Assembly (NCBI GenBank): GCA_965217585.1
Contig: OZ244561.1
Location: 5,248,001 to 5,312,000, forward strand
Length of the DNA: 64,000 bases
Origin: Candidatus Latescibacterota bacterium
Lineage (GTDB): Bacteria; Latescibacterota; UBA2968; UBA8231
Direction of reading: 5' to 3'
The notes beneath the pieces were generated by a model that searched no databases, was not told where the DNA came from, and saw only the letters and a list, made by a program, of their open reading frames with translations. Each line of letters opens with the position of its first letter. The first letter of the stretch is position 1. Shown here one piece after another: positions 8,254 through 27,123 of this stretch. The position numbers and the translations under genes are program-made.

Positions 8254-10104
8254 ATGAGACAGGTACTGATTCTAGTCCTGACAGTGTTGGGGATGGGAGT
8301 GGGCTATCGGGCCGAGGCGCGCCAATTTTACCAATTGGGGGGCCACGTTGGAAACCCTTGGAGTGAAAGCGGCACCCTGAGTTTCATCGATGTGGCAAAA
8401 GTGCCGGGTGCCATCCGCCCATTCAGCGCCGAAAGTGGCGAGAACCTGATTGCCTCGATGGGCGAGCGAAATGGCGACCTTACCAGCTTGGTGAGCATTT
8501 ACACCCTACCGGCGAATTGGTTAGAAGACCGCGTGTTGGTAGTAGATAGCGATGCGAACACGGCTTTTGTACACCCGCCGCGCATCAATTTCTTTCGCGG
8601 CCCCGGGTTCTTCTATACCACGCCGATGTTCTTCGATCTGGGGGCACCATTCCCCATCGAAGGGATCCGCTTTGCAACCCGCGCCGATCATCCGGGGCAC
8701 AAGATCCGCCAGTTTAGGCTTTCTATCAACGACGGCAGGGAAGAGAGCAAAAACGAAAAAGGAAATCTCATCTGGGCCTTGGTTCACGAAGAGAAGGACA
8801 ACTTGAGCCCAGTAGTAGAACTGGATATAGAACCCCGGATAGCACGCCACGTCTATCTCCATCCCTTGGAAGTGGGGGAGACTTGGGAAGTGGCCGAGTT
8901 CGAGGTGTACGGTCAGGGGTTCGTTCCCCAAGCCTCATTTCTGTCCGATCCGATCAATCTGGGACGAGCATCCAGTTTGGGACGCATTTGGTGGAACGGT
9001 CAACTTGATATAGGAGCGAAAATAGTCATCCAGAGCCGCAGCGGCAGCGATGACCAGCCCGAGGTCTACTGGCGCAAGACCGGGGTGGGGGGAGAGGAAG
9101 TGCCATTCGGAGCCAATGGTCGGCCCATGAGCCGCCAAGCGTATGGAGCCATGCCCCAGAATGTGCGAGGGGGCATTACCCAGGATCTGGAAAACTGGAG
9201 CGTATGGCACACCTATGAATATGCGGACGGACTCGCCGGCAGCCAGATTCGCTCTCCCAGCCCCCGGCAGTATGTGCAGTTACACATCGCTTTTTTCTCC
9301 GCCAGATTGGCGGGGGGACAGATCGACTCGCTGTTTTTTGAATTTTCCCAACCCCCTGTAGTCACCGAGGCGATTGGCGAGATCTACCCTCCTTTTGTCG
9401 AGTCACCCGACCCGGTTCGGTTCACCTATGCGGTGCGGACTCGACTGGAGGCAGAGCAATCCGGTTTCAATGTTCTCGAGGTGCGTACGCCCGCTCGTCT
9501 GGAGGCCATCCACGAGGTGCGTATCGACCGCGAAGTAGTCGATTTTACCCCGAATTTCGATCCGGCAGATCCCCACCAGTTCGCCGTCCAATTTGACCGC
9601 ATCGACCAAGACCAGACGCTGCTAGAAGTAGATTTCGACGCCCGAGTCTTCAACTACGGAACGACTTTCAGCGGCGCAGTGTCGGATGCGGACCGCGACG
9701 AAGTACCCCAGAGCGTGATTCCCGGAGATGCTATGAGCGAGTTGTTGAGCGACGCCTTGAACGTCCGCACGCCGCTCAAGGGCAGTCTGCTCAGCGTCGT
9801 GCAGGTGGTTCCCAACCCGTTCTCACCCAATGGAGACGGCGTCAACGACCAAGTGCAGTTCTCCTATACGTTACTGCGTCTGACCGATGTCGTGCCCCTT
9901 GCGACGGAAATCTACACGCTGGCGGGAAACCGAGTGCGCACCTTGGGCGGCGAGGAGGGGGGTAGCGCGCTTTATCAAGCTACTTGGGACGGTCGGGATG
10001 ACCAAGGCGAATTGGTAGCCCCAGGACTATACATTTACCGAGTCGTGGTAGAAGCGGGCAGTGGCCGGGAGGAGCGACTGGGGCCTATCGCTCTAGTGTA
10101 CTGA
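8254..10104 (+). CDS. Secreted FlgD-Ig-tailed protein (short class)
   Basis: RBS AAGGAGG at 8241; signal peptide; PNPFSPNGDGVND...WDGRD...PGLYIY; ends ALVY. Confidence 0.75.
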   Translation: MRQVLILVLTVLGMGVGYRAEARQFYQLGGHVGNPWSESGTLSFIDVAKVPGAIRPFSAESGENLIASMGERNGDLTSLVSIYTLPANWLEDRVLVVDSDANTAFVHPPRINFFRGPGFFYTTPMFFDLGAPFPIEGIRFATRADHPGHKIRQFRLSINDGREESKNEKGNLIWALVHEEKDNLSPVVELDIEPRIARHVYLHPLEVGETWEVAEFEVYGQGFVPQASFLSDPINLGRASSLGRIWWNGQLDIGAKIVIQSRSGSDDQPEVYWRKTGVGGEEVPFGANGRPMSRQAYGAMPQNVRGGITQDLENWSVWHTYEYADGLAGSQIRSPSPRQYVQLHIAFFSARLAGGQIDSLFFEFSQPPVVTEAIGEIYPPFVESPDPVRFTYAVRTRLEAEQSGFNVLEVRTPARLEAIHEVRIDREVVDFTPNFDPADPHQFAVQFDRIDQDQTLLEVDFDARVFNYGTTFSGAVSDADRDEVPQSVIPGDAMSELLSDALNVRTPLKGSLLSVVQVVPNPFSPNGDGVNDQVQFSYTLLRLTDVVPLATEIYTLAGNRVRTLGGEEGGSALYQATWDGRDDQGELVAPGLYIYRVVVEAGSGREERLGPIALVY

Positions 10105-20453: not shown

Positions 20454-20523
20454 GGAAATGGAACTGGGGTGTCGGGGTGGGCGCTTCTTGGCTTTTGCAC
20501 ATTTAATTTACAGAGCTTGCGTT

Positions 20524-21015
20524 ATGGCCGACGTCAAAGACGCCATTGAAGAAATGATCGAAGAGTCGTACTTGCTGGGGCTTTCGGAAGACGAGATCCT
20601 CGCGGATTTCAGCCGCTTTATCGATACCTGCTATACCGTTATCCAAGACAACGTAAAAAGTCGCGAAGCCCTCAGCCGCTTGGCCGAGAATTTGGCGCGG
20701 GAGAAGACCAGTACTCGCATCGCCGACCGCTCGGCTGATCCGGACGATGTCGCGATCAAGGACGCCCAGCGGGCCTGCGCCGAAAAAGCGGCGCGCCGCA
20801 AACGCATGGTCCTAAAGGCCATTGCCGACTACGACCCCCACCTCGTCCGCCTGATCAACGAGCAGCGCTTTCAGGTAGATCTCAAGGAAGTGTCGCGCCC
20901 CAAGCCCAAGGTCCGTCAGGGCCACGATTGGGAGCGCTATGGCCAGCTCTTGCTCAAGGCCGGCTGCATCACTGTGATCGCGCTCCTCCTGTTTCTCATT
21001 TACCTAAGGCTTTAA
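20524..21015 (+). CDS. Hypothetical helical protein with C-terminal TM anchor
   Basis: Host-like codon usage from ATG 20524; ends CITVIALLLFLIYLRL. Confidence 0.65.
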   Translation: MADVKDAIEEMIEESYLLGLSEDEILADFSRFIDTCYTVIQDNVKSREALSRLAENLAREKTSTRIADRSADPDDVAIKDAQRACAEKAARRKRMVLKAIADYDPHLVRLINEQRFQVDLKEVSRPKPKVRQGHDWERYGQLLLKAGCITVIALLLFLIYLRL

Positions 21016-21119
21016 TCGCTTGCGTTCGGCTGCGAAGACTACTTGTACAGACAGCCTATATTTAGAAACCCCCATAGGGAGCAATTTGGATTCTAGATTC
21101 TTAAATCTTGGAGGGTACC

Positions 21120-21782
21120 ATGCCAATTATTATTCCTATTATTATTGCTGTAGCCGCACTTGCGATAGGGACAGGAACAGCGGTCGTCCTAAAATGGGAC
21201 GAAATTATGACAGCCCTCAAGGGCAAGAAGCTCGCTGTGCTTGGAGCGCGTAAGGTTGGGAAGACCGTATTGATTAAATATCTTACTACAGGTACTGTAA
21301 CGGAAGATTATAAGCAGACAAGGCGTCCTGAAAAGACCCCAGCTCGTCGTTTTAGGCTCGAAGATTTGGATTTGGCCATTAAGAAAAGCTATGATGTACC
21401 TGGCAAAGATCATTATAAGCAATGGAAAGATATTACTAAAGAGTCAGACATTGTACTATATCTCTTGCGGATAGATAAGTTGATGGAAGGTGATGAAATC
21501 ACAGAGGAGAGGATCCGAGGAGACATGGAGCTCATTAGCAGTTGGTTAGAGGAAAATCCTAAAAAGTTTCCTCTGTTTATCATTGGAACGTACTTTGATC
21601 GCTTGTCAGAAAGTAAAATTGAGGATTACCAAGATAGTGTACGTCAAATGCCTATATTCGAAACCATTGAACTACTCGCTACCAAAAGTGGAAGTGATGT
21701 AAGGGTCATATTGGGTAGCTTAAGATCGAAAAGGGACACTGAAGAACTGGTACATAATATATTTAGCCAGGTGATAGGATAA
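21120..21782 (+). CDS. Membrane-anchored Ras/Roc-like small GTPase
   Basis: RBS GGAGG; N-terminal hydrophobic helix; G1 GARKVGKT, G2 YKQT, G3 DVPG, G4-like GTYFD. Confidence 0.8.
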   Translation: MPIIIPIIIAVAALAIGTGTAVVLKWDEIMTALKGKKLAVLGARKVGKTVLIKYLTTGTVTEDYKQTRRPEKTPARRFRLEDLDLAIKKSYDVPGKDHYKQWKDITKESDIVLYLLRIDKLMEGDEITEERIRGDMELISSWLEENPKKFPLFIIGTYFDRLSESKIEDYQDSVRQMPIFETIELLATKSGSDVRVILGSLRSKRDTEELVHNIFSQVIG

Positions 21783-22405
21783 TGAATAACCTATCGTTTA
21801 GTGCCCAACATTTGGACAACCAGTCCCTCGATCCTATGAAGATCGGAAAAGATTTTCTTACCGAAGAGAAGATAGATGAACGCCAGAAATTGGCTGAAAA
21901 AATATCAGAAATTTCTCTAAAAGGCGAAGAGGTCTTTTCTAAAAATTCGCATTTTGCGTTTTTGTATCACGATAAATTTCTCTTAGAGACACCTTCGGAT
22001 CAGTTAGATGATGGTGGTAGAATCGCGCCTCTCCTTTGCTATGGTCACGTGCCAGACGAGCCTCGGGAATCGTGGTCTATTGAGGTGGTCGATTCTTTAG
22101 TCGTCTTTGCGAAGAGTATTAAAAGAACGGTTTCAGACGAAAGCCAAAGGGTGGCCCTTGAAGGAGTTCAAAAAATAGTTGAAGAAAGAAAGCGAAGGCG
22201 GAAAGTCGAAAAAATCTTAAAGCCGCTCGGGCTTGGAGCAGCAGCTATAGCTGTGTTGGCTTTGGTAATGAAGGGAAAGGGAAGGAAAGACAAAGAGATA
22301 GATAAAGAAATGGGTCGCCGAAACCAGAATTTAGCCTTGGGGATCATAGCTGTGTTAAGTCTCTCAAATGCCATACTGGCGGTGGTTATTTTGTCTAAAA
22401 AGTAA
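21782..22405 (+). CDS. Hypothetical protein with two C-terminal TM helices, coupled to the GTPase gene
   Basis: TAATG stop/start overlap; DDGGRIAP motif; two hydrophobic segments flanked by basic runs. Confidence 0.7.
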   Translation: MNNLSFSAQHLDNQSLDPMKIGKDFLTEEKIDERQKLAEKISEISLKGEEVFSKNSHFAFLYHDKFLLETPSDQLDDGGRIAPLLCYGHVPDEPRESWSIEVVDSLVVFAKSIKRTVSDESQRVALEGVQKIVEERKRRRKVEKILKPLGLGAAAIAVLALVMKGKGRKDKEIDKEMGRRNQNLALGIIAVLSLSNAILAVVILSKK

Positions 22406-22475
22406 AATCAGTTTCAAGGTCCTAGCCTCATTTAGGCTGGACAAATCCACACTACTCAAAATCAGGAAAAAGATC

Positions 22476-23252
22476 ATGGCAGATAGCAAATGGCCGGACG
22501 AACCCTCTCGCCGCAAAGCTGTGTTTGTACTAGACCAGAGCGATATTGAGGCATTACGTTTAGATAAGGACGGCGCTAGCCTCTTACTCAATAAAGAAGT
22601 GCATGTACTTTCTGCTTTTTCGCAGGAGTCCAATCCAATCGTGCAAGAGCTAATTAACAGCGGGCTGGCGCGGCCAGGTGCTGTACTGATTCAAAGTCCT
22701 TTCGAGAAGGGTATCTACGAGAATTCGACGCAGGCGATGGAGCGTTTCGCACTAGACAAACATCTGTACTTTTCCACGTTATGTGGATATTTAGGTGCCA
22801 GCAAAGTTACCGTAGAGCAGATCGAACTTAAAACGAAAGATAAGAAGGAAACCTTGTCCATTGAAATCGAAGGTGCTTCCTCCGGACCCAGTGTAAGGAC
22901 TGACGTAAAAAATGAAGAGTTGGCTTCGCTCTACAACCGACTGGACTTGCAGGATACCTTCGTGGGAGGTTCACCAGATTTGCCAGAAGCAGAGAGATTT
23001 CTTAGAGAAACTGGGTTATTAGGTGACGCCAATATGCGCTCACTTCTCAAAAGCCAAGGGCCGATCAACCGGCTTACAAGCCGAAGGCTTAGGTTGAACA
23101 TAACAAACGAGACACAACGCAACCTTGATGTGTTGGTTAATTTTAACGCCTCCACTTTCTTCTCGCGGTTCTCATCACTGGAGGCTGACTACAATCGTCA
23201 TGTAAAAGAAAAGACAGAGTTCACTCTCACCGTCAGAGTAGATTTCCAATAA
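22476..23252 (+). CDS. Hypothetical 258-aa protein with long amphipathic beta segments
   Basis: ATG 22476 after AGGA; uninterrupted ORF within the AT-rich operon. Confidence 0.7.
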   Translation: MADSKWPDEPSRRKAVFVLDQSDIEALRLDKDGASLLLNKEVHVLSAFSQESNPIVQELINSGLARPGAVLIQSPFEKGIYENSTQAMERFALDKHLYFSTLCGYLGASKVTVEQIELKTKDKKETLSIEIEGASSGPSVRTDVKNEELASLYNRLDLQDTFVGGSPDLPEAERFLRETGLLGDANMRSLLKSQGPINRLTSRRLRLNITNETQRNLDVLVNFNASTFFSRFSSLEADYNRHVKEKTEFTLTVRVDFQ

Positions 23253-23265
23253 GGAGTCGCCTGAA

Positions 23266-23856
23266 GTGTCTGCCGATTTCTACGTCCACATTGTCGAATC
23301 GCCGTCGCCAGCAGAACTGCGTGATGGCGTCACAGAAGGCAGAGCGCTCTGCTCGTTCCTCGACATCGCCGGGATTCCATACTCGTATAGCCTCGCCGTT
23401 GATTTAGATCAGTTCCGCATAGCTATGACTAATAAAGTTGACGAAGCTATAAATGGATTTAGCAAACTCCCAATTCTGCACCTTAGCGTCCACGGGGGTG
23501 AAGGAGGAATTCAGCTTACGAATCAAGAGAAACTCTTATGGTCTGAGCTCGCTGATTACATTCATCCCATCAATAATAGACTCAATGGTAGACTCGACGT
23601 GTGCATGTCGTGCTGCGGCGGAGCGTACGGCGCACAAATGGCACAGGTCTTTCCAGATAGCCCTTATAATTGGCTTGTAGGCTCATTCGCTGATGTTGCG
23701 CTCCCAGACATTGCGTTGGCGTATTCTATCCTTTACCGCCGCGTCCACTGTGGCTACGAAAACTTGCTCGAGTTGATCGAAACGGTACGTGCCGCGTCAG
23801 GCATTTCCGATTTTGGTATATGGGATGGTAAGCGAATACAAGAGGAGTATCGCTGA
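23266..23856 (+). CDS. Caspase/CHAT-like (clan CD) cysteine protease
   Basis: RBS AAGGAG; ILHLSVHG (His-Gly after a hydrophobic strand) and VCMSCC (Cys after a strand) about 40 aa later. Confidence 0.65.
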   Translation: MSADFYVHIVESPSPAELRDGVTEGRALCSFLDIAGIPYSYSLAVDLDQFRIAMTNKVDEAINGFSKLPILHLSVHGGEGGIQLTNQEKLLWSELADYIHPINNRLNGRLDVCMSCCGGAYGAQMAQVFPDSPYNWLVGSFADVALPDIALAYSILYRRVHCGYENLLELIETVRAASGISDFGIWDGKRIQEEYR

Positions 23857-23904
23857 CAGATCATGCACTATTTTGTCCGCGCCTTTCGCACTTGCTAAAA
23901 CTCC

Positions 23905-26900
23905 ATGCCCAAACGCACAGATATTCAAAAAATAATGCTCATCGGCTCTGGCCCCATCGTCATTGGCCAAGCCTGCGAGTTTGATTATTCGGGAACGCAA
24001 GCCTGTAAGGCGCTGGCCGAAGAAGGCTACGACATTGTCTTGGTCAACAGCAATCCGGCGACGATTATGACTGATCCAGAGGTGGCCGACCGGACCTATA
24101 TCGAGCCGATCACGCCGGAGATTTGCGCGCGGATCATCGCCGCGGAAAAGCCGCAGGCTCTCCTGCCAACGCTCGGGGGCCAAACCGCGCTCAACACGGC
24201 GGTGGCCTTGGCCGAAAGCGGAACCCTCGCCGAGCACGGCGTCGAGCTGATTGGCGCTTCACTCGAGGCCATCAAGATGGCCGAAGACCGCGAACTCTTC
24301 AAAGCCGCCATGGACCGGGCCGGATTGTTCATGCCTCGCGGGGCCTTCGTCCACAGCCTCGAAGAGGCCCACAAGCACCAAGCCGAATTGGGCTACCCGA
24401 CGATCATCCGCCCCTCTTTTACGATGGGAGGCTCTGGCGGTGGCGTGGCGTACAACGCCGAGGAATTCGAGCGGATCGTGCGCCACGGCCTCGACCTGAG
24501 CCCGATCGACGAGGTGCTGATCGAGGAATCGGTGCTCGGGTGGAAGGAATTCGAGCTGGAGGTCATGCGCGATCACCGCGACAACGTGGTTATTATCTGC
24601 TCAATTGAAAACTTCGACCCCATGGGGATCCACACTGGCGACAGCATCACGGTCGCACCGGCGCAGACCTTGTCCGACAAGGAATATCAGCACATGCGCG
24701 ACGCGGCCATCCGCATCATGCGCGAGATCGGCGTAGATACCGGCGGGTCCAATATCCAGTTCGCGGTCAATCCTACGGACGGCCGCATGGTCGTCATCGA
24801 GATGAACCCTCGGGTCTCGCGCTCCTCGGCGCTGGCTTCTAAAGCAACGGGATTTCCCATCGCCAAGATCGCCGCCAAACTGGCCGTGGGCTACAGTCTG
24901 GACGAAATCCGCAACGACATCACTCGCGAGACCCCAGCCTCCTTTGAGCCGACCATCGACTACGTGGTGACCAAAATTCCGCGCTTTACCTTTGAGAAAT
25001 TTCCCAGCACGCCGGATGTACTCGACACCCAGATGCGCTCGGTGGGAGAGACCATGGCCATTGGCCGCACCTTTAAGGAATCTCTGCAAAAGGGCCTGCG
25101 CTCGCTGGAGGTCGGCCGGGCGGGTTTTGGCGCCGACGGCAAGGACCTCAGCGCGGCCAAAGTGGCCGACAAGGAACTGCGCGAGAAATTGCTGCGTCCC
25201 AATTCCCAGCGCATGTCCTACCTCAAGCTGGCCATCGCCAAAGGCTACACCCACGACGATATCTATGGACTCACGGGCATTGATCCGTGGTTTCTCGACC
25301 AGCTCTACCAGCTTTTTGAACTCGAACAGCAGCTAGCGCGCGAAGACGTGCTCGCAGACGTTGTCTTGTTGCGCCGCGCCAAGGAGTGGGGATTTAGCGA
25401 CCGTCAGCTAGCGCATCTCAACGGCTGCGACGAGGCGAGCGTCCGCCGGCGTCGCCTCGAGTTAGGCATTCGCCCGGTGTACAAAACGGTCGATACTTGC
25501 GCCGCTGAATTTGAGGCCCATACGCCCTACCACTACTCGACGTACGACCGCGAGGACGAAGTGCAGCGCTCGACGCGCAAGAAAATCGCCATCCTCGGCG
25601 GCGGGCCGAACCGCATCGGCCAGGGGATCGAGTTCGATTACTGCTGCGTCCACGCGTGTTTCGCGCTGCGCGAAATCGGCTATGAGACCATTATGGTCAA
25701 CTCCAATCCCGAGACGGTCAGCACGGATTACGATACGGCCGACAAGCTCTACTTTGAGCCGCTGACGATCGAAGACGTGCTGCACATCGTCGAGCGCGAA
25801 GCCCCGGATGGCGTCATCGTGCAGTTCGGGGGACAGACCCCGCTGAACTTGGCGGCCGAACTAGAGCGCGAGGGCGTGCCCATTATCGGCACCTCGCCTG
25901 GCAGCATCGACTTGGCCGAGGATCGCCAGCGCTTCGGCCAGCTACTGAACGAGCTGGGCATCCGCCAGCCGGCGAATGGCATGGCCGCTAGTTGTGCCGA
26001 GGCGTGCGCGGTCGCCGAGCAGATTGGCTTCCCGGTCTTGGTGCGGCCTTCTTATGTGCTTGGTGGGCGGGCCATGGTCGTCGCCTACGATGTCGGGGGC
26101 CTCGAAACCTACATGAACGAGGCCATTGAGGTCGCGCCCGAGCGGCCCGTGCTCATCGACCGCTACTTGCAAGGCGCGGAGGAATTCGACGTGGATGCCG
26201 TGGCCGACGGGACGGACGTGGTCGTCGGCGGGATCATGCAGCACATCGAGCACGCCGGCGTGCATTCGGGCGACAGCGCCTGCGCCCTGCCGCCCTACGA
26301 CACGCCGGCTAAGCACATCGAGGCCATGCGCGAGTACACCCATGCGCTGGCGCGCGCCCTCGGTGTGATCGGCCTGATGAACGTGCAATACGCCGTCTAT
26401 CAAGGCGAGGTCTATGCGATTGAAGTAAATCCCCGGGCTTCGCGCACCGTGCCTTTTGTCAGCAAGGCCATTGGCCGCCCGCTGGCCAAGATCGCCGCGC
26501 GGGTGATGGTGGGGATGAGTTTGCGCAAGCAGGGCTTCACCGAGGAGGTCGTGCCCGCGCACATATCGGTCAAGGAGGCCGTGCTGCCCTTTATAAAATT
26601 CCCCGGGGCCGATAGCCTGCTGGGACCGGAGATGAAGTCCACGGGCGAAGTCATGGGTATTGGCCACGACTTTGGCACGGCCTTCCTCAAGGCGCAGATG
26701 GGGGCGGGTTCGCTGCTGCCGTCGTGCGGCCGGGTCTTTATCAGCGTGGCCGACTGCGATAAGGAGGAGGTCTTGCCGGTGGCCCGCCGGCTGCGCGCGG
26801 CCGGGTTCGAGCTGGTGGCTACGCAGGGCACGCGCGACTTCCTCAACAAGCACGACATCGCCGCAGAGCGGGTGCGCAAAATTCACGAGGGCCGCCCGCA

Positions 26901-27123
26901 CATCGAAGACGCGATCCGCAGCCGCCAGATCGACCTGATTATCAACACCCCCCTCGACGAGCCTTCTCACTACGACGACTTTGCGGTGCGTCGGGCCGCG
27001 GTTGTAACCGGCGTGCCCTACACCACGACAATGGCCGGGGCCCGGGCTGCGGCCGCGGGCATCGAGGCGCTGCAACGCGCCGAACTGGGCGTGCAATCCC
27101 TGCAGGATTACCATCGGGGCTAG
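23905..27123 (+). CDS. carB: Carbamoyl-phosphate synthase large subunit
   Basis: [24 protein letters not shown]; duplicated ATP-grasp domains; C-terminal MGS domain. Confidence 0.98.

What the first reader, a model, noticed from the sequence alone, without database searches (positions are those of the whole stretch)
21120..23856. AT-rich four-gene insert: membrane GTPase + membrane partner + possible pore-former + caspase-like protease, a candidate new defence or cell-death system
Seen: a co-directional, tightly coupled block, clearly AT-richer than its flanks, sitting between a host gene and carB with no integrase. It encodes a TM-anchored Ras/Roc-like GTPase, a two-TM partner, a 258-aa beta-rich protein and a stand-alone HG...SC protease. 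Known: bacterial gasdermins and other death effectors are activated by adjacent caspase-like/CHAT proteases, and TRAFAC-GTPase-centred conflict systems exist. Inference: a GTPase-gated, protease-triggered membrane effector. I do not recognise this combination as a named system.
Basis: partly seen in the sequence, partly recalled or inferred. Interest (0 to 1): 0.85.

Follow-up and report, generated by a model that had tools for sequence, protein, structure and literature searches.

The report
Two defence-like modules, not one system
The four AT-rich genes are two separate mobile modules that landed side by side in a variable spot of the genome: a widespread, uncharacterised three-gene cassette built around a membrane-anchored Ras-like GTPase, and an unrelated stand-alone caspase-like gene that is truncated here.

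Summary
The sequence features are real. There are four co-directional genes at GC 0.38-0.50 between a core gene and carB, whose flanks are 0.59-0.70. They encode a TM-anchored Ras/Roc-like GTPase (g1), a membrane partner (g2), a 258-aa protein (g3) and a caspase-fold protein with an invariant HG...SxC (g4).

The four-gene system is not supported. g1-g2-g3 occur together, in that order, in 8 of 8 other Latescibacterota genomes examined. They also do so in all 25 metagenome loci that have enough upstream sequence. g4 is never beside them there.

g4 alone occupies this same site in three congeners. Other congeners hold a BglII/MT-A70 restriction-modification pair there, or nothing. Across 168 genomes of the phylum, g3 and g4 are adjacent only here.

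The triad was inserted between g4's leader and its start codon. Later g4 lost its tail and DUF433 domain.

g3 has no detectable known fold and no gasdermin signal. It is not beta-rich. Natural g2-g3 fusions exist.

The triad is probably a new GTPase-switch conflict module. It often sits next to Hma, Mokosh-like, WYL and HEPN genes. Its function and mechanism are inferred, not shown.

The parts
20521..21015 (+). Left flank: core gene 'up' (164 aa, C-terminal hydrophobic tail). It is not part of the insert.
   Evidence: 80-91% protein identity in same-genus genomes, whether the site is empty or filled. DNA homology of the flanks ends at 21014-21037 in most relatives.
21016..21104 (+). Intergenic leader that originally preceded g4 and now lies upstream of g1. 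It probably carries the promoter for the whole block (inferred).
   Evidence: In G007 the homology runs on to 21104. About 18 bp later it is followed by the first 9 codons of g4 (win 23262-23291), with no triad between. No promoter-like site above chance was found.
21105..23261 (+). Inserted three-gene cassette (triad g1-g2-g3). It runs from the g1 ribosome-binding site to just past the g3 stop. Junctions are good to about +/-15 bp.
   Evidence: Junctions come from comparison with G007 and G140. The same three genes, in the same order, occur at other chromosomal sites in 8 of 8 Latescibacterota genomes and in 25 of 30 metagenome loci.
21120..21782 (+). g1: N-terminally membrane-anchored Ras-superfamily-like small GTPase (220 aa).
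   Evidence: Hydrophobic residues 2-24 are followed by K-rich residues. G1 is GxxxxGK[TS], with G42, G47 and K48 invariant. G3 is DxxG: G95 is invariant and D is present in 25 of 28. G4 is T-x-x-D, with T157 and D160 invariant. G5-like is GS[LM]K (A3). Pfam Roc/Ras hits are weak. The PDB profile hits are Rap1b and Rheb.
21782..22405 (+). g2: cytosolic domain of about 135 aa (conserved AQxLDN and P[IL][ILV]CYG motifs), then a basic stretch and a C-terminal membrane anchor. There are two hydrophobic segments here; nine of the ten relatives compared have one.
   Evidence: No Pfam, PADLOC or NCBIfam family. No PDB sequence match at E<=10. Its start overlaps the g1 stop. It is fused to g3 in P0229, P0346 and P0339.
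22476..23252 (+). g3: soluble 258-aa alpha/beta protein of a large uncharacterised family, with no detectable known fold.
   Evidence: Model pLDDT 82. Foldseek PDB gave 0 matches at E<=0.001. VIA-align against 48,161 chains gave a best Z of 3.3. BFVD gave 0 at E<=0.001. The family has 888 cluster representatives at E<=1e-3.
23266..23856 (+). g4: stand-alone caspase-fold (clan CD-like) protein, 196 aa. It is an independent module and is C-terminally truncated here.
   Evidence: Fold. H72, H76, G77, S115, C117 and G119 are invariant. Most relatives are 211-256 aa. The same-site homologue in G140 is 366 aa, with DUF433 at residues 288-342.
23850..23870 (.). Deletion junction. About 870-990 bp (the g4 tail plus the DUF433 domain) that are present in relatives are missing here.
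   Evidence: Window 23262-23849 aligns to G140 8438-9031, and 23871 onward aligns to G140 9897 onward. The X7 contig carries 989 other letters between 23754 and 23871.
23905..27123 (+). Right flank: carB (1072 aa), a core gene.
   Evidence: ORF and translation. 91-96% DNA identity in same-genus genomes.

Best explanation
The block is a composite of two independent mobile modules in a variable hotspot between a core gene and carB.

Module 1 (g1-g2-g3, about 21105-23261) is a self-contained three-gene cassette that travels as a unit across phyla. It encodes a Ras-like GTPase tethered to the inner face of the membrane by an N-terminal helix. It also encodes a tail-anchored protein with a novel cytosolic domain, and a soluble protein of a fold that I could not match.

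My reading of how module 1 works is inferred, not shown. g2 and g3 form one regulatory or sensing unit, because they are fused in some organisms. That unit sets the nucleotide state of g1. The switched-on complex then acts at the membrane, through the anchors of g1 and g2, to stop growth or block an invader. In short, it would be a GTPase-switch conflict or defence module.

Module 2 (g4) is a separate single-gene caspase-fold module of defence islands and phage morons. It was resident at this site first. The triad was inserted between g4's leader and its start codon, so all four genes are now probably co-transcribed. g4 later lost its C-terminal tail and DUF433 domain.

Confidence by step:
- Composite origin and the triad as the conserved unit: about 0.85-0.9.
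- Defence or conflict role of the triad: about 0.55.
- The specific mechanism: about 0.3.
For: Synteny of the triad:
- g1-g2-g3 occur in order, without g4, in 8 of 8 other Latescibacterota genomes.
- They occur in order in 25 of 30 metagenome loci. The other 5 are cut by a contig end within 522 bp upstream of the g3 frame.
- g3 identity to the window's copy falls to 29% in these loci.
- Pairwise divergences of the three genes are correlated (Spearman 0.82-0.87, Mantel p 0.001, 26 loci).
- g1/g2 frames overlap by 4 nt in 5 of the 8 loci listed (L043, L062, L063, L066, L067) and by 1 nt here.
- g2-g3 fusions exist: P0229, P0346, P0339.

g4 independence:
- The g4 profile found 0 of 30 metagenome triad loci.
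- In the phylum, g4 is in 9 of 168 genomes and g3 in 14 of 168. Both occur only in G000 and in G106, where they are about 1 Mb apart.
- g4 alone occupies the same site in G140, G146 and G145.
- G007 keeps the leader plus 9 codons of g4, followed by a restriction-modification pair.
- The X5 and X22 contigs have the triad and then diverge at 23278. The X7 contig has the triad plus a long g4. An X12 contig has the empty site.

Hotspot: the site is empty in 10 of 18 congeners. It is filled with other content in 6 of 18. The filling is BglII-type endonuclease plus MT-A70 methylase in G002 by family scan, and like ORFs in G004 and G007 by reading.

Defence context of the triad:
- HmaB/HmaC lie directly upstream in L043.
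- A WYL-WCX regulator lies directly upstream in L054.
- A MkoA-like helicase with a PLD domain is in L066, and a HEPN protein in L062.
- An AriA/HEC-01A-like ATPase is in L009.
- HEC-05, PDC-M09 and JukA hits occur among the 121 neighbour ORFs.
- The triad is lower in GC than its flanks in several hosts.
- The distribution is patchy, and three copies carry in-frame stops (G014, G120, G121).

g4 context: a type IIG restriction-modification enzyme, an Mrr_cat-DUF433 protein, a LeoBC-like dynamin and a HerA-like ATPase are neighbours. A 33%-identical relative is a low-GC moron between the terminase and portal genes in a viral contig.

Precedent: a stand-alone caspase-like protease from E. coli was reported to protect against phages (PMC12642450, Discussion passage). 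Homology of that protein to g4 was not tested.

Complex prediction with g1 as partner against g2N plus g3: weak support. The score was 0.34 and the best of 3 controls 0.01. The mark was reached by 58 of 80 solved complexes and 2 of 110 mismatched pairs. At 0.60 or under, only 7 of those 80 passed, as did both mismatches. The runs agree in at least 69% of contacts and the partner's pLDDT is at least 73.
Against: - No experiment and no named family supports any function for g2 or g3.
- The defence context is descriptive only. My control, the window's own 35 other ORFs, was spoiled by a second defence-like island in the window, so no enrichment statistic exists.
- Several triad loci (L063, L067, parts of L054) sit among ordinary metabolic-looking genes.
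- No toxin or nuclease domain is recognisable in the triad, so the effector step is a guess.
- The complex prediction is only a weak pass.
- In the window and in the X7 population, g4 follows g3 by 13 bp and is probably co-transcribed, so an acquired functional link cannot be excluded.
- One metagenome contig of 26,477 bp holds relatives of g1, g3 and g4. These are P0138, P0071 and P0005, matched only by equal contig length. It may be a second case of linkage.
Confidence: 0.75

Rival explanations
1. One reading: all four genes form one system. The GTPase gates the caspase-like protease g4, which cleaves g3 to release a membrane pore-former, by analogy with gasdermin.
For: The four genes are co-directional and tightly spaced; g3 and g4 are 13 bp apart. 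The same arrangement, with a longer g4, is seen in a roughly 95%-identical population (X7). g4 has the caspase fold and an invariant His/Cys. In the atlas search, the nearest cluster to g3 that bears a Pfam family has Bact_GSDM on 13% of its members, at score 0.89; the tool itself calls such hits often chance. One 26,477-bp contig may hold g1, g3 and g4 relatives.
Against: - g4 is absent from 8 of 8 genomic and 30 of 30 metagenomic triad loci.
- g4 occurs without the triad in 7 of the 9 genomes of the phylum that have it, three of them at this same site.
- The triad persists where g4 is reduced to 12 bases (X5, X22).
- g3 is soluble and alpha/beta, with no match to any solved structure by Foldseek or VIA-align and no PDB sequence hit at E<=10.
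- None of 48 diverse g3 relatives shares any Pfam family.
- g4 here is truncated.
Confidence: 0.07
2. The triad is not an immune system. It would be a horizontally mobile membrane-associated regulatory module, a small-GTPase switch with its own GAP/GEF-like partners. Examples would be roles in membrane remodelling, polarity, vesicle formation or stress signalling, by analogy with MglA/MglB or the actinobacterial conservons. Alternatively it could be an addiction (toxin-antitoxin-like) module.
For: Prokaryotic Ras-like GTPases with dedicated partner proteins are known from non-immune settings. The MglA/MglB and conservon papers were seen only in the listing; the rest is recalled knowledge. No effector domain is recognisable in the triad. 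Some loci lie among ordinary genes.
Against: - The distribution is patchy: 14 of 168 genomes of the phylum, 6 of 30 in the genus.
- Three copies carry in-frame stops.
- The composition is foreign to the host.
- Here it sits in a hotspot that holds restriction-modification genes in congeners.
- It is directly adjacent to Hma, a WYL regulator, HEPN and Mokosh-like genes elsewhere.
- g2 gave no Roadblock or MglB-like hit (Pfam E<=1; PDB profile E<=10). That does not exclude the fold.
Confidence: 0.25
3. g4 in this genome is a decaying remnant without function. This concerns g4 only and is compatible with the best explanation.
For: It lacks the C-terminal tail present in most of the 67 relatives (211-256 aa against 196). 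It also lacks the DUF433 domain of its same-site homologues. Relatives at this site show further decay: a 97-codon fragment in G145, 9 codons in G007 and 12 bases in X5/X22.
Against: The whole caspase-fold core, residues 1-196, is intact and models at pLDDT 91. All invariant residues are present. The nearest relative, P0002 (87% identity), is similarly short at 189 aa, so the short form persists in more than one record.
Confidence: 0.35

Closest known systems
Bacterial gasdermin plus adjacent caspase-like protease operons
   Same: A caspase-fold protease gene lies directly downstream of a protein of about 250 aa, in a mobile AT-rich island.
   Different: The adjacency is not conserved. g3 has no detectable similarity to any solved structure, and no gasdermin entry appeared in any list. 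The local Pfam copy lacks PF26164, so that profile could not be used.
DO-GTPase-centric conflict systems (Kaur et al. 2020, PMC7159879; section 27 read)
   Same: Both are mobile neighbourhoods built around a TRAFAC-class GTPase with conserved partner proteins. About 13% of DO-GTPases have N-terminal TM segments, and most of those systems have TM components.
   Different: Those systems are defined by a GTPase with a conserved Walker-B glutamate, a three-domain GAP1 protein, and a GASH or FNIII component. g1 is a Ras/Rap-like small GTPase with no invariant Glu. g2 and g3 gave no Pfam hit.
MglA/MglB and actinobacterial conservon (CvnA-D) small-GTPase modules
   Same: A prokaryotic Ras-like GTPase is encoded with dedicated small partner proteins, which probably control its nucleotide state.
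   Different: g1 carries its own membrane anchor. The partners show no Roadblock signal by sequence. The cassette is mobile and sits in defence-like contexts. These systems were seen only in a search listing or are recalled.
Eleos / dynamin-like (LeoA, LeoBC) defence GTPases
   Same: A GTPase acts at the membrane in an anti-phage setting. A LeoBC-like dynamin lies next to g4 relatives in G026 and G106.
   Different: Dynamins are large, self-assembling GTPases. g1 is a 220-aa Ras-like switch and gave no PADLOC hit to Leo proteins.
SAVED-CHAT, type IV Thoeris caspase-like effectors, and the stand-alone caspase-like defence protease of E. coli 27-18K (PMC12642450, passage read)
   Same: g4 shares the caspase/CHAT fold and His-Cys dyad positions. 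Like the E. coli protein, it has no dedicated effector gene and occurs in defence islands.
   Different: g4 is much smaller than CHAT proteins and has no SAVED, TPR or TIR partner. It has no Pfam CHAT or Peptidase_C14 hit. It is recurrently fused or adjacent to DUF433. Homology to the E. coli protein was not tested.

Membership tests
Ras-superfamily small GTPase (g1) | G1 P-loop GxxxxGK[ST] | tested here: met
   G42, G47 and K48 are invariant in 28 sequences (A3).
Ras-superfamily small GTPase (g1) | G3 DxxG and G4 [NT]KxD guanine-specificity motif | tested here: met
   For DxxG, G95 is invariant and D is present in 25 of 28. G4 is T157-x-x-D160 (THCD or TYFD), with the Asp invariant. It aligns to GNKCDL of Rap1b. 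The N and K of the canonical motif are replaced.
Ras-superfamily small GTPase (g1) | Significant match to curated family profiles | tested here: inconclusive
   The window's copy scores below the Pfam cut-offs: Roc 21.2 bits against 27, Ras 19.1 against 21.6. Many relatives carry precomputed PF00071/PF08477. The family profile hits 57 PDB small GTPases at E<=0.01, best 5.3e-5.
Ras-superfamily small GTPase (g1) | GTP binding and hydrolysis | not testable with these tools
   Needs biochemistry.
Bacterial gasdermin-protease system | Gasdermin-fold protein | tested here: inconclusive
   No gasdermin among the Foldseek PDB matches (0 at E<=0.001), nor among the 50 VIA-align rows shown (best Z 3.3). 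The PDB sequence profile gave 0 hits at E<=10. PADLOC gave 0 hits. PF26164 is absent from the local Pfam. The only lead is one atlas cluster, with 13% of members and score 0.89.
Bacterial gasdermin-protease system | Conserved adjacency of protease and substrate genes | tested here: not met
   g4 is absent from 8 of 8 genomic and 30 of 30 metagenomic triad loci. Across 168 genomes of the phylum the two are adjacent only in G000.
Clan CD (caspase/legumain/CHAT) peptidase (g4) | Caspase-hemoglobinase fold | tested here: met
   The model has pLDDT 91.3. Foldseek gave 120 matches at E<=0.001. Most of the listed rows are clan-CD chains: SAVED-CHAT, legumains, GPI transamidase and caspases, with TMq 0.55-0.64.
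Clan CD (caspase/legumain/CHAT) peptidase (g4) | Catalytic His (followed by Gly) and Cys, each at the end of a central strand | tested here: met
   H76-G77 end strand 68-78 and C117 follows strand 111-114. Both are invariant in 29 sequences. Residue-level superposition on a solved caspase was not available.
Clan CD (caspase/legumain/CHAT) peptidase (g4) | Match to the Pfam CHAT or Peptidase_C14 profile | tested here: not met
   No such hit at E<=1. The PDB sequence profile gave no peptidase.
DO-GTPase conflict system (Kaur 2020) | GTPase with a conserved Walker-B glutamate, plus GAP1 and GASH/FNIII components | tested here: not met
   No invariant Glu in A3. g2 and g3 gave no Pfam family. I did not verify that the local Pfam holds the GAP1 and GASH models.
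Type IV Thoeris (TIR plus caspase-like) | Adjacent TIR-domain protein | tested here: not met
   No TIR hit in g1-g3 or the flanking genes.

The most novel reading that the evidence does not exclude
The g1-g2-g3 triad is a previously undescribed, widespread immune or conflict system. Its g3 family alone has 888 representatives at 50% identity, and relatives are labelled Latescibacterota, Gemmatimonadetes and cyanobacteria. In this reading a membrane-tethered Ras-like GTPase acts as the switch. Two partners, a novel-domain tail-anchored protein and a protein of no detectable known fold, act as sensor or regulator. The output is at the membrane. That would be a bacterial counterpart of membrane-anchored small-GTPase signalling used for defence.
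Probability: 0.4. Interest if true: 0.8.

Novelty: new variant of a known kind. Interest (0 to 1): 0.55.

Why it matters
If the triad is a defence system, it would add a new logic to bacterial immunity: a Ras-type molecular switch anchored to the membrane, working with two proteins that have no known relatives. It would also give two large families of unknown function (g2 and g3) a role that can be tested.

The locus is also a clean natural example of how defence hotspots are built. Within one genus, the same 150-bp intergenic site holds nothing, a restriction-modification pair, a caspase-like gene, or the triad stacked on that gene. This shows that tight, co-directional, AT-rich gene strings can be accretions of separate modules rather than operons that evolved together.

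The g4 family is a minimal stand-alone caspase fold, recurrently joined to DUF433 and also carried by a phage as a moron. It is a second candidate for single-gene protease immunity.

Tried and rejected
**Gasdermin or pore-former reading of g3.** Foldseek against the PDB gave a best E of 0.52. VIA-align against 48,161 chains gave a best Z of 3.3, with 0 at Z>=5. BFVD gave a best E of 0.089. The PDB sequence profile gave 0 hits at E<=10. Pfam on 48 diverse relatives found no family in more than one member. The atlas lead to Bact_GSDM (13% of one cluster, score 0.89) found no support. PF26164 itself is not in the local Pfam, so that profile was never tested.

**Hot-dog lead for g3.** Five of the 50 VIA rows are hot-dog-fold thioesterase-like proteins (1t82, 8ayv, 1sh8, 3lmb, 1yoc; Z 2.3-3.3, covering residues 71-258). 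I keep this only as a faint lead.

**g2.** No Pfam, NCBIfam, PADLOC or PHROG family, no atlas hit and no PDB sequence hit.

**Mobility signatures.** There are no flanking direct or inverted repeats beyond short chance matches. There is no integrase in the island. Promoter-like sites were at the level of the shuffles (4 found, 4.1 expected). Terminator-like sites numbered 8 against 3.9, and none is convincingly placed.

**Defence-context statistic.** I batch-scanned 121 neighbour ORFs from 21 non-redundant triad loci against PADLOC (63 families at E<=1e-8). As a control I scanned the window's 35 other ORFs (48 families). The control is invalid because the window holds a second defence-like island. 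The tool also reports families, not the number of ORFs hit. No enrichment is claimed.

**Other collections.** Viral contigs gave no triad relative by three peptide patterns. Plasmids gave no g3 relative, and g4 has only 23-28% identical hypothetical proteins there.

**Coverage in sequencing runs.** Depth holes over 23314-23861 in X5, X12 and X22 are not evidence by themselves. Only the contigs that run on into unlike sequence, and the joints, were used. RNA-library contigs of X22 cover 21169-21973 and 22086-23278. DNA can be present in such libraries, so this is no proof of transcription.

**Literature.** Searches, and passages of PMC7159879, PMC13069673 and PMC12642450, turned up no description of this triad. 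Supplementary files were not seen. Supplementary Fig. 13 of PMC12642450 may show whether the stand-alone E. coli caspase resembles g4.

Full report
**What is there.** Window 21108-23856 holds four co-directional ORFs.
- g1: 21108/21120-21782.
- g2: 21782-22405.
- g3: 22476-23252, 258 aa.
- g4: 23266-23856, 196 aa.

GC in 400-nt windows is 0.378-0.497 across 21200-23799, against about 0.59-0.70 on both sides. Per gene, GC is 0.41, 0.42, 0.46 and 0.50, against 0.63 for carB. The window is G000:C1:5248001-5312000 of a 7.3-Mb single-contig genome. Its relatives in the genome collection are titled Candidatus Latescibacterota.

**The four proteins.**

g1 has a hydrophobic N-terminus followed by a small-GTPase domain.
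- Pfam gives Roc (E 3.5e-4), Ras (1e-3) and MMR_HSR1 (3.8e-3), all below the curated cut-offs.
- Of 74 relatives, many carry precomputed PF00071/PF08477.
- In 28 aligned sequences the G1 residues G42, G47 and K48, the G3 glycine G95, and T157 and D160 of a T-x-x-D G4 motif are invariant.
- The family profile matches 57 PDB small GTPases at E<=0.01. The best is Rap-1b at 5.3e-5, with GThCDL aligned to GNKCDL.

g2 is a domain of about 135 aa with invariant A8, Q9, D12, D17, R34, D76 and R80.
- It is followed by a basic stretch and a C-terminal hydrophobic anchor. The window's copy has two such segments; nine of the ten relatives compared have one.
- It matches nothing in Pfam, NCBIfam, PADLOC, PHROGs, the atlas or PDB sequences.

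g3 models at pLDDT 82 as an alpha/beta protein, about 40% helix and 18% strand, with no TM segment.
- Foldseek against the PDB gave no match at E<=0.001.
- VIA-align against 48,161 chains gave a best Z of 3.3.
- BFVD gave nothing.
- A profile of 48 diverse relatives hit no PDB sequence at E<=10 and no shared Pfam family.
- The family is large: 888 representatives at 50% identity with E<=1e-3, 637 at <=1e-10 and 289 at <=1e-30.

g4 models at pLDDT 91.3.
- Its matches include SAVED-CHAT (8tl0, E 1.9e-6, TMq 0.63), legumain, GPI transamidase and caspases. There are 120 matches at E<=0.001, and most of the listed rows are clan-CD chains.
- H72, H76, G77, S115, C117 and G119 are invariant in 29 sequences.
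- H76-G77 and C117 sit at the ends of adjacent central strands, as in clan CD peptidases. That last comparison is from established knowledge.

**The four genes are not one conserved unit.**
- In other Latescibacterota genomes, g1-g2-g3 lie in this order at other chromosomal sites, without g4. This holds for G019, G002, G029, G014 (split over two contigs) and the records behind L021, L022, L024 and L026, that is 8 of 8.
- A metagenome scan with the g3 alignment gave 30 loci, with g3 identity from 56% down to 29%.
- Profile searches of their six-frame ORFs found g1-g2-g3 in order in 25 of them.
- The other 5 are cut by a contig end within 522 bp upstream of the g3 frame: two show g2-g3 and three show g3 only.
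- The g4 profile hit 0 of 30. Nineteen of these loci have at least 900 bp downstream of g3.
- No other neighbour recurs across lineages. A 221-aa gene follows g3 only in five Latescibacterota loci. Four of them share one chromosomal site; L026 lies at another site.
- Pairwise identities of g1, g2 and g3 between 26 loci are correlated (Spearman 0.82-0.87, Mantel p 0.001). This shows that they travel together. Because kin share history, it shows nothing more.
- g2 and g3 are fused in P0229 (456 aa) and, at least in part, in P0346 and P0339.

**g4 has its own life.**
- In 168 genomes of the phylum, g4 is in 9 and g3 in 14. Both occur only in G000 and in G106, where they lie about 1 Mb apart.
- In same-genus G140, G146 and G145, g4 sits at exactly this site between the 'up' gene and carB, with no triad.
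  - In G140 it is a 366-aa protein with DUF433 at residues 288-342.
  - In G146 it is followed by a 974-aa protein with a weak mad2 (methylase-like) hit.
  - In G145 it is a 97-codon fragment.
- Elsewhere its neighbours are a type IIG restriction-modification enzyme and an Mrr_cat-DUF433 protein (G028). They are a LeoBC-like dynamin and a HerA-like ATPase in G026, by family scan. The G106 locus shows a like-starting 679-aa dynamin-type ORF, by reading only.
- A 33%-identical relative is a low-GC gene on the opposite strand, between the terminase large-subunit and portal genes of a viral contig that also has an integrase.

**History of the locus.**
- The up|carB site is a hotspot.
- In 10 of 18 same-genus genomes the flanks are about 150-240 bp apart: G001, G003, G010-G013 and G015-G018.
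- In 6 they are 1.15-3.3 kb apart with other content: G002, G004, G005, G007, G009 and G014.
- Two gave no usable pair: G006 and G008.
- G002 holds a BglII-type endonuclease and an MT-A70 methylase there. G004 and G007 hold like ORFs, by reading.
- G007 still has the window's leader (up to 21104). About 18 bp later come the first nine codons of g4, and then the restriction-modification pair.
- So the ancestral order was up, leader, g4. The triad (about 21105-23261) was dropped between the leader and the g4 start codon.
- Against G140, the window lacks about 866 bp after g4 codon 195 or so.
- Contigs of public runs show all stages.
  - X12: an empty site, joint 21014 to 23875.
  - X7: the triad plus a g4 with 989 letters where the window has 116.
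  - X5 and the RNA library X22: the triad followed by sequence that departs from g4 at 23278.
- The window's form is held fully or nearly so by X1-X4 (share of words 0.87-1.00), which are possibly its source.

**What the triad probably does.** The following is shown:
- The triad is a conserved, mobile, three-gene unit.
- g1 has the motifs of a guanine-nucleotide switch.
- g1 and g2 each carry one terminal membrane anchor. Positive charges lie on the side of the soluble domain, so both soluble domains are read as cytoplasmic by the positive-inside rule.
- g2 and g3 can be a single polypeptide.

A complex prediction placed g1 against g2N plus g3 with weak support.
- The score was 0.34 and the best of three controls 0.01.
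- The mark was reached by 58 of 80 solved complexes and 2 of 110 mismatched pairs.
- At 0.60 or under it was reached by only 7 of those 80 and by both mismatches.
- The runs share at least 69% of contacts and the partner's pLDDT is at least 73.

Context points to conflict or defence.
- The host site is a hotspot for restriction-modification genes and g4.
- HmaB/HmaC lie directly upstream in L043, and a WYL-WCX regulator directly upstream in L054.
- HEPN (L062), a MkoA-like helicase with PLD (L066) and an AriA/HEC-01A-like ATPase (L009) are near other copies.
- HEC-05, PDC-M09 and JukA hits occur among the 121 neighbour ORFs.
- The triad's GC is below the host's in several loci.
- Three copies carry in-frame stops: G014, G120 and G121.

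From this I infer that g2-g3 is the sensor or regulator of g1, and that the active complex acts at the membrane. No effector domain is visible, the neighbourhood evidence has no valid control, and some loci sit among ordinary genes. I therefore put the defence role at about 0.55 and the mechanism at about 0.3.

**Comparison with known systems.**
- PADLOC v2 gives only 22-34-residue P-loop matches for g1 (PDC-S01/PDC-S27, best E 0.001) and nothing for g2-g4.
- The DO-GTPase systems of Kaur et al. (PMC7159879, section 27 read) need a Walker-B glutamate, GAP1 and GASH or FNIII. None of these is seen here.
- Gasdermin-protease operons fail on synteny and find no support in the g3 fold.
- g4 resembles the stand-alone caspase-like defence protease reported from E. 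coli 27-18K (PMC12642450, Discussion passage). The resemblance is in concept only, because homology was not tested.
- Four literature searches found no description of the triad.

**Verdict.** The four-gene, protease-triggered model is not supported. What remains of interest is the triad as a candidate new GTPase-switch module, together with a well-resolved example of modules accreting in a hotspot.

Noticed in passing
window 38187-46020: A second lower-GC island (GC 0.43-0.55) with ORFs of 281, 1265, 753 and 290 aa. A PADLOC scan of the window's ORFs gave DrmD/SNF2-helicase (E 9e-119), PDC-M23A (1e-98), PDC-M23B (3e-55) and TmtA (6e-62) hits. I did not resolve which ORF gives which hit.
   Followed up: partly
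L018 1181-2419 (G002); also L017 (G007) and L019 (G004): The same up|carB site holds a type II restriction-modification pair in congeners. In G002 it is a BglII-family endonuclease (Pfam E 4e-47) plus an MT-A70 methylase (E 5e-31). G004 and G007 have like ORFs by reading.
   Followed up: yes
L073 5917-6666: A 249-aa relative of g4 (33% identity, GC 0.39 in a 0.55-GC contig) lies on the opposite strand, between the portal and terminase large-subunit genes of an IMG/VR contig that also has an integrase. This is a phage moron.
   Followed up: partly
L036 8442-9542 (G140); L014 7089-8315 (G028); P0011, P0013: The g4 family is recurrently joined to DUF433. The two are fused in G140 and in two database proteins. 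In G028 the next gene is an Mrr_cat-DUF433 protein.
   Followed up: partly
L010 5127-5792 and 3816-5069; same genes in L022, L024, L026, L042: In five Latescibacterota loci g3 is followed by a 221-aa gene. A gene of about 320-420 aa with no Pfam family follows it in four of them (not in L026). These are lineage-specific additions to the triad.
   Followed up: partly
G120:C2:2075917-2076467, G121:C1:831408-831827, G014:C67:24374-25123, G005:C1:1125537-1125674: Some g3 copies carry in-frame stops or are short fragments. The triad decays in some genomes.
   Followed up: no
L016 2189-2426 (G005): The 3.3-kb filling of the hotspot in G005 includes a 238-bp duplicate of the start of carB (90% identical to window 24056-24293). 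It also includes a 292-aa ORF with no Pfam family, which is shared with G009.
   Followed up: no
window 48174-49313: A 379-aa ORF next to the second island looks like a transposase from its N-terminal sequence. This is recalled resemblance and was not checked.
   Followed up: no
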